64,000 nt of DNA from a virus, in the IMG/VR virus record IMGVR_UViG_2814123225_000005; one strand, 5' to 3'. The translations under genes were made by a program, and so were the position numbers. This document shows positions 32,179 through 54,357 of this stretch, piece after piece. Numbering within the stretch: position 1 is the first letter of the stretch; every line of letters starts with the position of its first letter. The notes under the pieces are model-generated. The model saw only the letters and a program-made list of their open reading frames with translations. It did no database searches and was not told the DNA's origin.

Positions 32179-33686
32179 TCAGTTTCTTCCTCGACATCTT
32201 TGGATTCGTTAAAAATACTGGAATCGACAGGCATTTCCTCCCTTTCCTCACGCCGGATACGCTCAAGCTCCGCCTCCGCCTGCTCCTCGGTCATGTCATC
32301 GAGCCTCATCAGTGCTGTTTTCTGCGACAGGGTCGGTTTTCCACCGGTCCGTATGCTCGTCAGGTTTGCCATTTCGAGTTCATCGTCCGGTAGGCCGTCC
32401 TTAAACTGGATTTTCGGTACGGTAGGCTCGTAGTTAAGCCGTCCCGGTGCCTGCGCATGTTCCAGTAGTTGCGCGATGTATAAGACTTTCGCAAGCCCTT
32501 CCGCATAGTACTGGCGCTTACGGTTGATCTTGGCAAGCAGCGAATTCATCCGAAACTTGACCGCAGCCCCTGACGTATGGCTCGTTCCCGAATTATCCCG
32601 GCCAAGCGCAACAGGCGGGAGCTCTGCCGTTGTGAGTAGGAAATCGAGCAGCGTTTCAAGCTCTTTAAATGCGGCCATGAGCTGCCCGTCCCATGTGATG
32701 TATTTAGGGGTAAAGGTTTCGTCTTTATCTACCTCAAAAATTTTATCTCGCCCGGCGCGAAATATTGGCTGGCCGTCGTCATCTTCTTCTAGTGAGCCGG
32801 TTGGTATTGCCATCGCCGGGTCCGCGTGCTTGTCGAGGATATTTGCGATTTGAGACAGCCGATTATCGATCTCGTCAAATATAGCTTTATGCTCCGAGAG
32901 ATCGTCAATTCCTTCCCAAGATTCGTCAGTCCCATAGTTTGGGACGTGAACAACAAGTGGAAACGGCACTCCCGTTGTTACTTCTCGCTTTTCGCCTTCT
33001 TTTGGCGGTATCTCGGCATATATGCGCCACTGCTTGACTTTGTTATCCACGTTATACGTGATAGGCTCCATACGGAGTTTGCGGTATTTAATCAGTCCCG
33101 GGTAGTGACTCTCGACGAATAATTGCCAGTCGTCCTTTCCATCACGCTCGAACAAGACGGGATAAGCAATATGGTACGCAAAGATTAGATTTTCATTGGT
33201 CGGTAGCGGCTCCGGGAATACATATTCGGCTTTTTGTTGCTCGATGATAACCCGATACGGATCGATGGATTCGTCTAAAAATCCGTCATAATGCTGGCTG
33301 TAACGGACTTTGTAAAATGCGTCACCTCGGTATGCATTGCCTAAAGCACTCTCGTAGTTGATAATGTGCAATCGGTTCTCTTGTACCAGCCGTTCAATCG
33401 TCTCCTGCTCTGGCGAGTGGTCCTTTCCGTTGCCGGCCGAAAATGTCGGCGTTTCTCCAAACAGAAAATCCGCTGACTTTTTGCAGATGAGCCCAGGAAA
33501 GTTTGCGGTAATATATACGGTATCCCTCTGGGACTGAGTCAGCCGCTGATGCACGCGCTCGAATACATCGTAGTGAGCGCCTTTAAACAGTTTCTGGTTC
33601 TCTTTGTATCGTTCGATCCGTTTCTTATGCCTCTTTTGTTCCGTCGGGAAGTACTCGCCAACGGCGAATATATCTTTCAGTCTCAC
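32175..33686 (-). CDS. Portal protein (SPP1-like)
   Basis: YITWDGQL; SG.AVKF; between TerL and minor capsid; start GTG 33686 or CTG 33680. Confidence 0.9.
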   Translation of the reverse strand: MRLKDIFAVGEYFPTEQKRHKKRIERYKENQKLFKGAHYDVFERVHQRLTQSQRDTVYITANFPGLICKKSADFLFGETPTFSAGNGKDHSPEQETIERLVQENRLHIINYESALGNAYRGDAFYKVRYSQHYDGFLDESIDPYRVIIEQQKAEYVFPEPLPTNENLIFAYHIAYPVLFERDGKDDWQLFVESHYPGLIKYRKLRMEPITYNVDNKVKQWRIYAEIPPKEGEKREVTTGVPFPLVVHVPNYGTDESWEGIDDLSEHKAIFDEIDNRLSQIANILDKHADPAMAIPTGSLEEDDDGQPIFRAGRDKIFEVDKDETFTPKYITWDGQLMAAFKELETLLDFLLTTAELPPVALGRDNSGTSHTSGAAVKFRMNSLLAKINRKRQYYAEGLAKVLYIAQLLEHAQAPGRLNYEPTVPKIQFKDGLPDDELEMANLTSIRTGGKPTLSQKTALMRLDDMTEEQAEAELERIRREEREEMPVDSSIFNESKDVEEETE

Positions 33687-35462
33687 TCACCTCCTTATAG
33701 TCCCGGTGGTTTTTTTATAATAGGACTTCTTACGCCGCCTCTTTCCACCTGCAATATCGACAGCTCCGGCCAGTGCGTCCGGCAGGTCATCGTGTGTACC
33801 TCCCGGAAACTGTTCCATCTGTTCGAGCAGCAATCGGTGGGACCGGTTGAAACGTAAAAAACCACTCTCAATGAGCGGCTCCAGTGATTCGATGCGTTCT
33901 TCTTTTTTCGTTTTGGACGAGAAAGATTTTATTCTTGTCCGGTATATCTTGAGCCGCGATAACTCCTCTTGAATCTGTCGATACATGTCGAATTGAGCCC
34001 CGACAGTCTCGACGACAAAGACCCGATGCTCATATTCGATGATCTTCTCTACCGCCACCTTGAGCGCAACGTGCGCCTGACACTTCTGGGCCCACGCATC
34101 AAGGACGTAGAGGACACCGGTCCGCCGGCATCGGCCAATCGTAACAATTGCATTGTAGTCGCTGCGCCTGTTTTTGCCTTGCGCAATGTCCCAAAATGCG
34201 TATAGGTCCATCGGGATCGTGCGGCCGTACTGATCGTAGATGTCGGATTCGTCGTAATAACGAAATTTCTCCGGCACGAATATCGCGCTTTCTTCGTCGA
34301 TCGGGTTGTTTTGGTACTCCGTGTTAAAGGCGCGCGATCCGTTATCCCACTACCAACGCATCAATTTCCACAGCGGCTGAACTTCCGGCCATAGTACGAC
34401 GGCTCCCTCGTCCATTTCGGATTTGTGTTCGAGGTAAAAAGCTTCCGCCGCCTCTGCTCGCTCGTCTTCCGGCCTTTCGGGGTCAAGATAAATCGACCGG
34501 CATTTCTCCCACAGGTCAGTTTGATTAGGTTCCTCAATAAGCGCCTTGTACCGCTTTGTCTTAAAGTCAGTACGCTTCATAACCTTGATTAAGAGAGCGT
34601 CCACGTGCACGACGGTACCCATATAGATAATCGCTGTCTTCTTGCCGGCAGGGTCTCCGAGAGGCACGACAACCTTCGTAAACCAGTCAAACAGTTCTTG
34701 CCGTAATTGCTCTGTGTTCGTATTCCGTTTATCTTCGAGATCGTCACAGATAACCAAGTCTGGGCGCACTCCGTTCCAGTTTCGTCCACGAAGAGCTTGC
34801 CCCGTTGAGGCCGCCTCAACCTTGCATATTTGATGCTGTCTATCATCCTCCATCGGCTCCCACGCAACAAACTCGGACGTATTATCCCTCGGGTTCATCT
34901 GCTGTTTAGGGTGGAGCAACGGACCAAAGTCCTTCCGTAGCTTCTCGTTATGCTTTAGCTGGTTCGCGATCCATTCTAGGTTCGCGCTGGAAACTGTCGG
35001 GGTCTCCGAGATGACGATGATATACTTTCGTAGCCGGTAGACGATCTCATGCAAAGGGTTCGCCTTTGATAGATACGTTGATTTAGCATGGGATCGCGGC
35101 GCGGCTACCGCTACCTTGCCGTTCCTCTTGACATACGAGATACGATTCATTTCATCGCAGATTTCTTTGTGAAATTGCGGAGCATCCGCTACATCTTCCA
35201 GCTCAAAGCTATCCCAGTTGCCCGGATTGCCCGGGTTTCTCGTTTCCGAAAAGTATTCCCACGCAAAATAGAGTAGATTACGCTCGCCCCGGTGGATACG
35301 CTCCAACCGCTCAAGCTCCGTTAGATACTCGTCAAGTTCAGCGAGCTCACTTTCAGTAAGCCGATTCTGATTCGCGGCCATAGCGTCGATCAGCTCGGTG
35401 TACTTGCGTATGAGTTCCTCGCGTTTCTCTCGTTTTAGCCACTCGGTGCCGGTCCACGTCAC
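33687..35462 (-). pseudogene. terL: Terminase large subunit with in-frame TAG at 34350-34352
   Basis: APRSHAKST, RPDLVICDDLE, GTVVH; LMRW*WDNG; C-terminal WDIA..D..AIV, HDDLPDA. Confidence 0.92.
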
Positions 35463-35577
35463 GGCATCGCCTCCAATCATTGATTTTTAACGGAAAAATC
35501 ACGGGAAATTACCGTGTTTCACGCTCAGGTCGACCGTTTGGTCTTCCGCAAGGGAAAACGGCTAATTTCCCGTTGAT

Positions 35578-52571: not shown

Positions 52572-52572
52572 T

Positions 52573-54357
52573 TTATCCCTCCTTGAACTCGTCTAAAACG
52601 TCGATTGGCCTCCCTTTATACCCGCTAGAACTATACCTACCCGTTGCAGTTCCCCCGGCCTTAAATTCCGAGTGCAGCCGTCCGTCCGCCTCAAGTGCAT
52701 GTGGTATCTTCCGGATATACGTATTTAATAGCTTTTCGTAGACTGCAACGGTCGCTAGTGGCTTTAACGCAGTCTCCGTCTCGTAATACTCCTCCATCAC
52801 TTCTGATGCGGTTGACCGCTCTTTGCCACGTTTAAACTTAGGAGTTACATCCTCAATGCCAAGGTGATCGTAGATTAGATACGCGAGGTGATTGCCGTTA
52901 GTGATCGAAAACTCGGTAACGTACCTGGGCGCGTGCTCCTCGACGGCAGGGGCCGGCTTTTCTGCGTATAATTTCAGAAGCCTTTCCTTTGCGTCCCGAT
53001 ACTTCTTCAGTCCCGTTTTGCCCACAGACTCGCACTCCTCGATAATCCTTTGCTGCTTTTTGACGCTGTCCTCCCATCGTTTAATTCGCGCTTTCTGAGC
53101 TTCAGTCCACTTTGCAATCTTTTTAGCGCTGAGCGTCCGATCCATCTTACAGATAAACTCGTCGTTTATGCCGTATGTCTCTATCACGTCACGTTTAGCC
53201 TGCTCAAGTGCTGGTTCAAACTCGGCTTCCAGCGCCTTTAGACCGTCCAAATCGATCTCAAAGCCGCATCGAGCCATAAATACGTCAACTTCGGGGAGTT
53301 TAGAGTCGATCTCGGCGTAACACTCGAGCAGCCGGCCGGGTGACTTACGCATCATCTCCATTTGCCACTCGCAGAGTTTCCAGCTGTACAGGACGTCCTT
53401 GATAGCATAGATGCCGACAAGCTCCACACTAAAAGGCGCAGGTGATCCGTTGCCAAACAAATCCTCAAACGTATAAATGGGACCGGGGATGCCAAAATAT
53501 TTGCCGTATTTTTCTACGAGTATTTTTAACCCGTACTTTTCCTCGTGCTCGTTGAGGAGGTGCATCGCATCCAACGTATCCCACACGCATCCACGGATTT
53601 CGTAACCGTCGTTTTGAGCAACGTGCAAATCATACCGGGCGGACCCCATATGAAACGTTTTGCCGTGGATTGGCTGTCATAGATACGGCTTGATTGCGCC
53701 CAGCACCTTCGAGCGCGTGAGTTGTGGGTCACCGATCTTGAAAGCGAAAGTATCATTTAAAAACTCGAAGCCCTCGACTCCCCGCATATCTACATGCCCA
53801 TACGGAAGGTAATAGCCCTCGCCCAGCAACGGCAGCCAGATCGAAAACCCGATACTTAAGTCAATATACGAATCGACCCCAGTACCCTCAAAGTCGCCTG
53901 CCGTCATCGATTTCACGCCGAGAAAGTCGTATTTTCCAGCCCATTCCGTCATCTGCCGTTTACACTCCGTTCGAAGCCGCTCAACAAACGCTGGCAGCTC
54001 CGAATCATGCGTGAGGATGTGGAAATTCTCAGGCTTTGATGCAAGCACCTCTTCGATCCGCCGCTCCCTCTCGGCCTCCTTACGCTTTTGCAAAATCCGC
54101 GCCCCTGCCGCGAGCATATCGCCCTTGGTCCACCGCTTGCCGTCGGTCCGAAGACTGCCTATCTCTCCGGACCTGAATGCGACAAATGCGGCGTCAAGTT
54201 GCATACGTTGCTTGGGCGTAAGGGCCATCGCGCCGATTCGCTCGAATGCTTCTTCGGGTGTTTCAGCGACCCCAGCGGCTTTGCGTTTTTGTACCGCCTC
54301 TTTTATTCGGGAGGTGTCCGTCGGAGAGCGTGTGTTGAGCGTAAGTTTGAATTTCGT
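52573..54357 (-). pseudogene. polA: Family A DNA polymerase, N-terminal (3'-5' exo/thumb) part; in-frame TGA at 53677-53679
   Basis: ExoI GDFEGTG, ExoII RYD, ExoIII YAIKD; GTATGRYSSS; frame continuous across stop; probable ACG start. Confidence 0.88.

What the first reader, a model, noticed from the sequence alone, without database searches (positions are those of the whole stretch)
33680..54357. Cluster of near-cognate start codons in prophage 2
Seen: strong SDs at normal spacing point to ACG (polA 54357, GGAGG-8), ATC (nuclease 50289), CTG (ruvC 49295, GGAGG-9), ATA (nrdA 48626, GGAGG-9), GTA (N6-methylase 44697) and probably CTG (portal 33680, same GGAGGTGAnTGAGA-CTG context as ruvC). For polA, ruvC, nuclease and methylase an in-frame stop lies just upstream; for ruvC the first canonical start is about 100 codons in, past the GLD active-site motif. 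Random decay is a poor fit: only three nonsense codons were seen over tens of kb of coding DNA, versus five to six hits in roughly 200 nt of start codons. Known: IF3 suppresses such starts. Inference: a built-in translational throttle on DNA-metabolism genes, possibly released when IF3 is limiting.
Basis: partly seen in the sequence, partly recalled or inferred. Interest (0 to 1): 0.72.

Follow-up and report, generated by a model that had tools for sequence, protein, structure and literature searches.

The report
Phage genes starting at weak codons
Five or six genes of this honey-bee-pathogen prophage really do begin at weak, non-standard start codons, and its infectious relatives and more distant phages do the same, so this is an inherited design that public annotations miss, not gene decay.

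Summary
The window is Paenibacillus larvae DNA carrying a defective Halcyonevirus-type prophage (genes on the minus strand). Strong Shine-Dalgarno sequences at 5-9 nt point to ACG (polA), ATC (Cas4-like nuclease), CTG (RuvC), ATA (nrdA remnant), GTA or ATT (N6-methylase) and CTG (portal). Five infectious phages (C7Cdelta, Ash, Heath, Scottie, Unity) and further P. larvae proviruses carry the same codons, except that the methylase is present only in proviruses. The stretches between these codons and the first canonical start are under strong purifying selection in that frame only (pN/pS 0.04-0.19). They match the N-termini of distant homologues, which have ATG, GTG or TTG at the same codon. Decay, stop-codon read-through, frameshift fusion and downstream initiation are rejected. 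The habit is family-wide. In Paenibacillus and Brevibacillus prophages polA starts at ATC, CTG, ATA or ACG in 7 of 10 species. The nuclease keeps ATC/ATT, RuvC has CTG/ATA, and TerL and portal have ATC in some. An identical screen flags 17 of 294 long phage ORFs against 1 of 295 host ORFs. A translational throttle on low-copy proteins is the best reading. IF3-dependent release is untested. The scan has noted single-gene analogues in coliphages and Klebsiella phages.

The parts
54355..54370 (-). polA initiation region: GGAGG (54370-54366), 8-nt spacer, ACG start (54357-54355). The TAG stop of the upstream gene lies at 54372-54370.
   Evidence: ACG and its SD are invariant in 5 infectious phages and 4 proviruses. 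Distant relatives have ATG/GTG/TTG, or ATC/CTG/ATA, at the same spot, 2-4 codons before the KLTLN motif.
53677..54357 (-). polA first segment (226 codons from ACG). It ends at a window-specific nonsense TGA (53679-53677), and the frame continues through 52573-53676.
   Evidence: Extension codons 2-43 have pN/pS 0.08 in this frame and above 2 in the other frames. The TGA is TCG or GCG in infectious phages. Pfam DNA_pol_A_exo1 and DNA_pol_A match.
49270..50301 (-). Cas4-like (PD-(D/E)XK-type, phrog_1706) nuclease gene: SD GGGGGAG (50301-50295), ATC start (50289-50287), stop TGA 49272-49270.
   Evidence: ATC is invariant. C7Cdelta and Ash lack the window's ATG 50241. Relatives at 56% identity have GGAGG-8-ATT at the homologous Ile codon. 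pN/pS is 0.19.
48762..49309 (-). RuvC-like resolvase gene: SD GGAGGTGA (49309-49302), CTG start (49295-49293), catalytic YLGLD at codons 11-15, stop at 48764-48762.
   Evidence: CTG is present in all 7 P. larvae-type lineages. A provirus at 42% identity has the same GGAGG TGA nnn nnn CTG; others have ATA or ATG there. The PHROG RuvC profile covers residues 6-174. pN/pS is 0.11 over 100 codons.
48396..48640 (-). nrdA 5' remnant: SD GGAGG (48640-48636), ATA start (48626-48624), and about 77 nrdA codons before a roughly 3.5-kb deletion that removed the rest of nrdA and nrdB.
   Evidence: In Heath/Scottie/Unity-type lineages the frame opens 17 codons before ATA, with no canonical start before it or for more than 30 codons after it. 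The Pfam ATP-cone match begins 4 residues after ATA, but it is weak (E 0.0017, below cutoff). pN/pS is 0.15.
43486..44709 (-). N6-adenine DNA methylase gene: SD GGGGAG (44709-44704), candidate starts ATT (44703-44701) and GTA (44697-44695). The internal conserved Met ATG is at 44652.
   Evidence: GTA sits exactly where relatives at 63-76% identity have ATG (MGRAERKRWAANVKSM), TTG or ATC. phrog_3820 profile position 9 equals residue 9 counted from GTA. The gene is present only in P. larvae proviruses, not in the five infectious phages.
32175..33696 (-). Portal gene: SD AAGGAGG (33696-33690), window-only GTG (33686-33684), conserved CTG start (33680-33678).
   Evidence: There are 11 other lineages with TGA ACG/GCG AGG CTG and no canonical start for 42-44 codons. 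Portals at 51-61% identity begin with ATG at the homologous position (MSYFEVGEYFPP against (CTG)KDIFAVGEYFPT). Pfam SPP1_portal profile position 6 equals residue 16. pN/pS is 0.04 with pS 0.51.

Best explanation
These are genuine translation start sites that use near-cognate codons: ACG, ATC, CTG, ATA, CTG, and ATT or GTA. Each is read by initiator tRNA because a strong Shine-Dalgarno sequence sits 5-9 nt upstream, and each lies within about 35 nt of the stop codon of the preceding gene, a position that could favour translational coupling (coupling itself was not tested). They were inherited from infectious Halcyonevirus ancestors and belong to a wider habit of a family of temperate Bacillales phages that share this polA/exonuclease/nuclease/RuvC/RNR module. 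Shown here: the position of the N-termini, the absence of canonical codons, their conservation, and the fact that the downstream stretch is translated. Inferred: weak codons initiate at roughly 0.1-3% of AUG in E. coli reporters (10.1101/063800), so they would hold down the output of proteins needed in low copy or harmful in excess (polymerase, nucleases, resolvase, RNR, methylase, 12-mer portal, terminase) relative to neighbours in the same operons.
For: (1) Five infectious phages and 4-6 further P. larvae proviruses have identical near-cognate codons and SDs. (2) All five start codons are invariant while only 30-60% of nearby 4-fold sites are invariant. (3) The 'extensions' are coding. pN/pS is 0.04-0.19 in the claimed frame. 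In the two other frames, tested for portal, polA and nuclease, it is 0.76-5. (4) Homology fixes the N-termini. This holds for portal against ATG-started portals and for polA against ATG/TTG/GTG-started relatives, including the infectious Sporosarcina phage Lietuvens. It also holds for the methylase against ATG, RuvC YLGLD against MGLD/ILGID, and TerL ATC against ATG. Pfam and PHROG profiles agree. (5) The pattern recurs in five distant proviruses. polA is near-cognate in 5 of 5, the nuclease in 4 of 5, RuvC in 3-4 of 5, and portal, TerL and nrdA in some. (6) The enrichment is specific to the phages: 17 of 294 ORFs against 1 of 295 in the host. (7) Neither the phages nor the window carry tRNA genes, and no site shows unusual RNA structure.
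Against: Efficiencies of near-cognate starts are known to me only from E. coli. GTA is a double mismatch to AUG and would be very weak. The polA start switches between canonical and near-cognate at least 4-8 times on the family tree, so selection for weakness is not demonstrated. Within the P. larvae clade, the absence of 'upgrades' to canonical codons is only suggestive (rough p of about 0.08, derived). One hit of the automated screen, the C7Cdelta integrase, is probably false.
Confidence: 0.8

Rival explanations
1. Tolerated drift rather than a throttle. The sites are real near-cognate starts, but weak codons persist only because strong SDs, and possibly coupling to the upstream gene, already give enough of proteins whose dosage hardly matters. 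The start-codon identity then wanders nearly neutrally.
For: The polA start changed codon 17 times and crossed the canonical/near-cognate line at least 4-8 times among 43 relatives. TerL, portal, RuvC and the methylase each show ATG in some relatives and ATC/CTG/ATA in others. Within the P. larvae clade the lack of upgrades is not significant.
Against: Host genes almost never show weak starts under the same screen (1 of 295). The affected genes are consistently low-copy or potentially toxic functions, never major capsid or tail genes. The nuclease keeps an Ile-codon start down to 56% identity, and down to about 26-30% identity in proviruses G003 and G004.
Confidence: 0.3
2. Conditional switch. 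Genes with near-cognate starts form a regulon that stays silent in the lysogen or early in infection, and turns on when initiation fidelity drops through IF3 limitation or a phage-induced change.
For: Only circumstantial. All carriers found are temperate phages or proviruses. The genes would be harmful if leaky in a lysogen. Discrimination against near-cognate starts by IF3 is established for E. coli infC (cited in 10.1101/063800).
Against: No candidate factor was identified. No shared sequence or structure was found beyond the SD. The mix of early replication genes and late genes (portal, TerL) does not fit a single temporal class.
Confidence: 0.1
3. Start-codon decay in a dying prophage.
For: The window prophage is defective. 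It has nonsense codons in polA and TerL, an nrdA-nrdB deletion and an IS insertion.
Against: Identical codons occur in five plaque-forming phages and in distant proviruses. The codons are invariant although neighbouring silent sites vary.
Confidence: 0.01
4. Recoding instead of initiation: read-through of the in-frame TAG before polA, or a frameshift from the overlapping upstream genes into nuclease or RuvC, making fusion proteins.
For: The upstream gene, its TAG and polA are in one frame in most P. larvae-type genomes. The nuclease and RuvC frames overlap the upstream genes by about 30 nt.
Against: Provirus L057 has a 1-nt deletion between TAG and ACG. It breaks the frame relation but keeps the SD and ACG. 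Relatives with ATG/TTG/GTG at the same codon are separate genes behind intergenic spacers. A full SD sits at initiation spacing in every case. No suppressor tRNA is present.
Confidence: 0.02

Closest known systems
E. coli infC (IF3) AUU start codon
   Same: A near-cognate start behind a normal SD that lowers translation and is discriminated against by IF3.
   Different: It is a single chromosomal gene with a proven autoregulatory loop. Here six genes in one phage use ACG, ATC, CTG, ATA and ATT/GTA, with no evidence of feedback or IF3 dependence.
E. coli pcnB (poly(A) polymerase I) AUU start codon
   Same: A weak start that keeps a potentially harmful nucleic-acid enzyme at low level. This is the closest functional analogy for the nuclease, RuvC and polA.
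   Different: It is one host gene in a Gram-negative. Here the feature spans a phage lineage across Paenibacillus and Brevibacillus prophages and also affects structural and packaging genes.
Earlier notes of this scan: ATT-started flap nuclease of phAPEC8-like coliphages and ATT-started DNA polymerase of a Klebsiella phage (AI notes e1-321097, e1-125077)
   Same: Phage replication genes whose relatives keep only weak starts (ATT/ATC/ATA/CTG) and whose public annotations are truncated.
   Different: Those are single genes in Gram-negative lytic phages, and I did not check them. Here five to six genes lie in one temperate Firmicute phage genome, with a matched host control and a family tree of start-codon switches.
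Chloroplast non-AUG start codons (PMC9845219)
   Same: Evolutionarily conserved non-AUG starts, proposed as an extra layer of translational control. I saw only this paper's abstract.
   Different: A different system (organelle), and mostly GUG/ACG on a few genes. It was not examined further here.

Membership tests
Genes with non-canonical (near-cognate) bacterial initiation codons | No ATG/GTG/TTG at the N-terminus defined by homology | tested here: met
   Portal, polA, nuclease, RuvC and methylase in all P. larvae-type lineages; nrdA in the Heath/Scottie/Unity-type lineages. Exception: the window's own portal has GTG 33686.
Genes with non-canonical (near-cognate) bacterial initiation codons | Shine-Dalgarno sequence at functional spacing from the proposed codon | tested here: met
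   GGAGG at 8-9 nt (polA, RuvC, nrdA, portal); GGGGGAG at 5 nt (nuclease); GGGGAG at 6 nt to GTA.
Genes with non-canonical (near-cognate) bacterial initiation codons | The sequence downstream of the proposed codon is translated in that frame | tested here: met
   pN/pS is 0.04-0.19 in frame. In the other frames, tested for portal, polA and nuclease, it is 0.76-5. The catalytic YLGLD of RuvC lies in the extension.
Genes with non-canonical (near-cognate) bacterial initiation codons | The protein N-terminus (fMet/Met) maps to the codon | not testable with these tools
   This needs N-terminal proteomics or initiation-site ribosome profiling.
IF3-controlled weak-start regulation (infC type) | Expression responds to IF3 level | not testable with these tools
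   No computational proxy exists. No shared RNA structure or motif beyond the SD was found.
Stop-codon read-through or programmed frameshift fusions | A fixed frame relation to the upstream gene plus a recoding signal, conserved among relatives | tested here: not met
   The frame relation is broken in L057 while the SD and ACG are kept. Relatives have independent canonical starts at the same codon. No structure was found and no suppressor tRNA.
Pseudogenised prophage genes | The lesions are absent from infectious relatives | tested here: not met
   The start codons are identical in five infectious phages. By contrast, the window's nonsense codons in polA and TerL are absent from them.

The most novel reading that the evidence does not exclude
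Start-codon identity defines a phage regulon. In this family of temperate Bacillales phages, genes for replication enzymes, nucleases and packaging proteins are kept translationally silent in the lysogen by near-cognate starts. They are switched on together when initiation fidelity falls during induction or infection, through IF3 limitation or a phage-encoded modifier of initiation.
Probability: 0.1. Interest if true: 0.85.

Novelty: new variant of a known kind. Interest (0 to 1): 0.6.

Why it matters
Near-cognate initiation is regarded as a rarity in bacteria; only two cases are confirmed in E. coli (10.1101/063800). In this phage lineage about 6% of long genes use it, and the codons are conserved in infectious phages. 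The same genes use weak starts again and again in relatives that infect other Bacillales. That gives a natural, comparative system for asking whether weak start codons are used to set protein stoichiometry or to protect lysogens.

There is also a practical consequence. Public records of Halcyonevirus phages, which are candidate agents against American foulbrood, annotate several genes too short. In C7Cdelta, RuvC loses 75 codons including its catalytic Asp, portal 42, polA 43, the nuclease 47 and NrdA 34. Gene callers limited to ATG/GTG/TTG will repeat the error.

Tried and rejected
(1) Decay. Rejected because infectious relatives carry the same codons.

(2) TAG read-through into polA and frameshift fusions. 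Rejected by L057 and by relatives with canonical starts.

(3) A phage tRNA that might read odd start codons. None is present in the window or in five phages.

(4) A shared regulatory RNA structure. Folds of 81 nt around all six sites have z-scores from -1.2 to +1.1.

(5) Covariation between the ruvC and portal 17-nt cassettes (GGAGGTGAnnGAGnCTG). The window has TGAGACTG at both sites and most phages have CGAGGCTG at both. Provirus 2850744690_000003 mixes the two forms and 641736255 has an intermediate. I therefore dropped it as evidence for a common trans-acting factor.

(6) The ATA candidate start for the C7Cdelta integrase from the automated screen. It is probably false, because the Arm-binding domain begins after the first canonical start.

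(7) A PDB sequence search for the NrdA N-terminus. It did not cover the first 80 residues. Only the weak Pfam ATP-cone hit does.

(8) RNA-seq evidence.

(9) Literature. Full-text searches found no report of non-canonical starts in P. larvae phages. The 48-genome paper scored only conventional start codons.
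Full report
**Context.** The region from about 18 kb to the end of the window has about 50% G+C against about 40% for the flank, and its genes run on the minus strand. It is 82-99% identical to the infectious Paenibacillus larvae phages of genus Halcyonevirus: C7Cdelta, Ash, Ley, Heath, Halcyone, Scottie and Unity. The nearest held genome, G001, carries the same prophage at 100% identity, so it adds no independent information.

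The prophage is defective:
- It has a TGA in polA (53679-77) where the phages have TCG or GCG.
- It has a TAG in TerL (34352-50) where they have AAG.
- An A7-for-A6 frameshift lies near the TerL 3' end.
- A deletion of about 3.5 kb removed most of nrdA and nrdB.
- It carries an IS transposase.

**Observation.** All six sites are as described:

| Gene | Upstream element | Spacer | Proposed start |
|---|---|---|---|
| polA | GGAGG | 8 nt | ACG 54357 |
| nuclease | GGGGGAG | 5 nt | ATC 50289 |
| RuvC | GGAGG, then in-frame TGA | 9 nt | CTG 49295 |
| nrdA | GGAGG | 9 nt | ATA 48626 |
| methylase | GGGGAG, then ATT and ACC | 6 nt to GTA | GTA 44697 (or ATT 44703) |
| portal | AAGGAGG, then TGA | 9 nt | CTG 33680 |

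- In polA the first canonical start comes 43 codons after the ACG.
- In RuvC it comes about 101 codons later.
- The window's portal also has GTG 33686, only 3 nt from the SD.

**Test against infectious relatives.** I fetched five complete infectious genomes and aligned the sites.
- ACG (polA), ATC (nuclease), CTG (RuvC), ATA (nrdA) and CTG (portal) are present in all five.
- The window's portal GTG is ACG in the phages, so they have no canonical start for 42-44 codons.
- C7Cdelta and Ash even lack the nuclease ATG 50241.
- The depositors chose the first ATG/GTG/TTG, leaving gaps of 68-200 nt and truncated products. For example, RuvC is annotated at 102 aa and lacks its first catalytic Asp.
- Four to six further P. 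larvae proviruses in IMG/VR agree.
- The methylase is absent from the five phages. It is present, with the same ATT-ACC/ACA-GTA, in two other provirus lineages (L100, L102).

**Are the extensions translated?** Pooled Nei-Gojobori pN/pS between each proposed start and the first canonical codon:

| Gene | pN/pS |
|---|---|
| portal | 0.04 (pS 0.51) |
| polA | 0.08 |
| RuvC | 0.11 |
| nrdA | 0.15 |
| nuclease | 0.19 |

- The two other frames were tested for portal, polA and nuclease. They give 0.76 to more than 5.
- All five start codons are invariant, although only 30-60% of nearby four-fold sites are.

**Where is the N-terminus?**
- **Portal.** Portals at 51-61% identity begin ATG-S-Y-F-E-V-G-E-Y-F-P-P. 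That aligns with (CTG)-K-D-I-F-A-V-G-E-Y-F-P-T. The Pfam SPP1_portal profile starts at residue 16.
- **polA.** Relatives at 50-67% identity share a KLTLN motif 2-4 codons after the start. ATG, GTG or TTG occupies the homologous codon in many of them, including the infectious Sporosarcina phage Lietuvens.
- **Methylase.** Relatives read ATG-G-R-A-E-R-K-R-W-A-A-N-V-K-S-M against (GTA)-G-K-A-D-R-K-R-W-A-A-N-V-K-S-M. Others have TTG or ATC at that codon. The PHROG profile is in register with GTA as residue 1. Because GUA mismatches AUG twice, the ATT two codons upstream is an equally good candidate.
- **RuvC.** YLGLD aligns with MGLD of ATG-started homologues and with ILGID of solved RuvC. The PHROG resolvase profile covers residues 6-174.
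- **nrdA.** A weak ATP-cone match begins four residues after ATA. In the Heath-type lineages no canonical codon exists from 17 codons before ATA to more than 30 after it.

**A family-wide habit.** I examined five distant proviruses (G002-G006) that share this replication module:

| Gene | Start codons found |
|---|---|
| polA | ACG, ATA, CTG, ATC, ATT/ATC (near-cognate in all five) |
| nuclease | ATC or ATT in four, TTG in one |
| RuvC | CTG in G002 (same GGAGG-TGA-n6-CTG layout), ATA in two, probably CTG in G005, ATG in one |
| portal | ATC in G004; canonical in G002, G003 and G006; no match in G005 |
| TerL | ATC in G005 and G006, exactly where C7Cdelta has ATG |

- Among species-representative genomes, polA is near-cognate in 7 of 10 Paenibacillus/Brevibacillus prophages. 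It is near-cognate in 1 of 9 prophages from other Bacillales.
- On a polA tree of 43 sequences the start crossed between canonical and near-cognate at least 8 times, 4 of them forced by well-supported branches.
- I ran one identical automated screen on phages and host. It required ORFs of at least 150 codons with the first canonical start at least 20 codons in. It also required a near-cognate codon with at least a 5-nt SD within the first 12 codons.
- That screen flags 17 of 294 ORFs in these phages against 1 of 295 in 400 kb of host chromosome (p = 6e-5). One phage hit, the integrase, is probably false.

**Alternatives.**
- Decay is excluded by the infectious relatives.
- Read-through of the TAG before polA is excluded by provirus L057. 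There a 1-nt deletion breaks the frame relation while the SD and ACG remain. It is also excluded by relatives with independent canonical starts.
- Frameshift fusions lack any signal, and every site has a full SD at initiation spacing.
- There are no phage tRNAs, and no site shows unusual RNA structure.

**Mechanism.**
- **Shown:** the genes start at or within two codons of the listed near-cognate codons.
- **Inferred:** initiator tRNA reads these codons inefficiently. In E. coli reporters AUA, AUC, AUU and CUG initiate at 0.1-3% of AUG, and other codons lower still (10.1101/063800).
- The strong SDs, and possibly coupling to the upstream gene whose stop lies within about 35 nt, would give low but sufficient output. 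Coupling was not tested.
- The affected proteins are enzymes or low-copy virion and packaging proteins, never major structural proteins. That fits a stoichiometric throttle.
- Whether weakness is selected or merely tolerated is open. The frequent switches favour tolerance. The host contrast and the deep conservation of an Ile-codon start in the nuclease favour selection.
- IF3-dependent release remains speculation.

**Comparison and novelty.**
- The kind is known: infC and pcnB use AUU in E. coli.
- This scan's earlier AI notes describe single ATT-started replication genes in coliphages and Klebsiella phages (unchecked by me).
- New here is a cluster of five to six such genes in one temperate Firmicute phage, the extension to portal and terminase, the recurrence across a prophage family, and a host control.
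- Full-text searches found no prior report. The P. larvae phage genomics paper PMC6070908 scored only start codons proposed by auto-annotation programs and does not mention non-canonical starts.

Noticed in passing
window 53677-53679; 34350-34352; 33710-33716; 48313-48396; 38249-39472: The prophage is defective. It has a window-specific TGA in polA (TCG/GCG in phages) and a TAG in TerL (AAG in phages). An A7 run replaces A6 and shifts the last TerL codons. A deletion of about 3.5 kb removed most of nrdA and nrdB. An IS transposase is 99.9% identical to copies in phages BN12 and Vegas.
   Followed up: partly
window 60997-60999 (ORFs 61209-60997 and 60996-60745, minus strand): An in-frame TGA joins two ORFs. 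The same TGA is present in infectious C7Cdelta and Ash, but it is GGA in Heath, Scottie and Unity. The downstream ORF has no canonical start at all. This could be two genes, read-through, or another odd start (ATC 60978 behind GGAGG).
   Followed up: no
window 49293-49309 and 33678-33694: RuvC and portal share a 17-nt initiation cassette, GGAGGTGAnnGAGnCTG, that occurs exactly twice per genome. The window has TGAGACTG at both sites and most phages have CGAGGCTG at both, but one provirus mixes the forms. Chance, conversion or a common constraint is unresolved.
   Followed up: partly
window 51083-54357: The family A polymerase is encoded in two pieces separated by a 110-aa DUF7296 gene (52239-52571). 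The infectious phages have the same arrangement (gp57/gp58/gp59 of C7Cdelta).
   Followed up: no
L118 1120 (G005) and L124 882 (G006): The large terminase of two distant proviruses starts at ATC behind AAGGAGG/GGGAGG, exactly where C7Cdelta has ATG (MAWT against (ATC)AWT).
   Followed up: yes
window 44694-44697: The TAG of the small upstream ORF (44909-44694) overlaps the methylase GTA as GTAG. This mimics the ATGA-type stop/start overlap of coupled genes.
   Followed up: no
G001 chromosome, within 2,182,527-2,183,510 (minus strand): This is the only host ORF flagged by the near-cognate screen in 400 kb: ACG behind GGAGG, with the first canonical start 56 codons in. I did not examine it further.
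   Followed up: no
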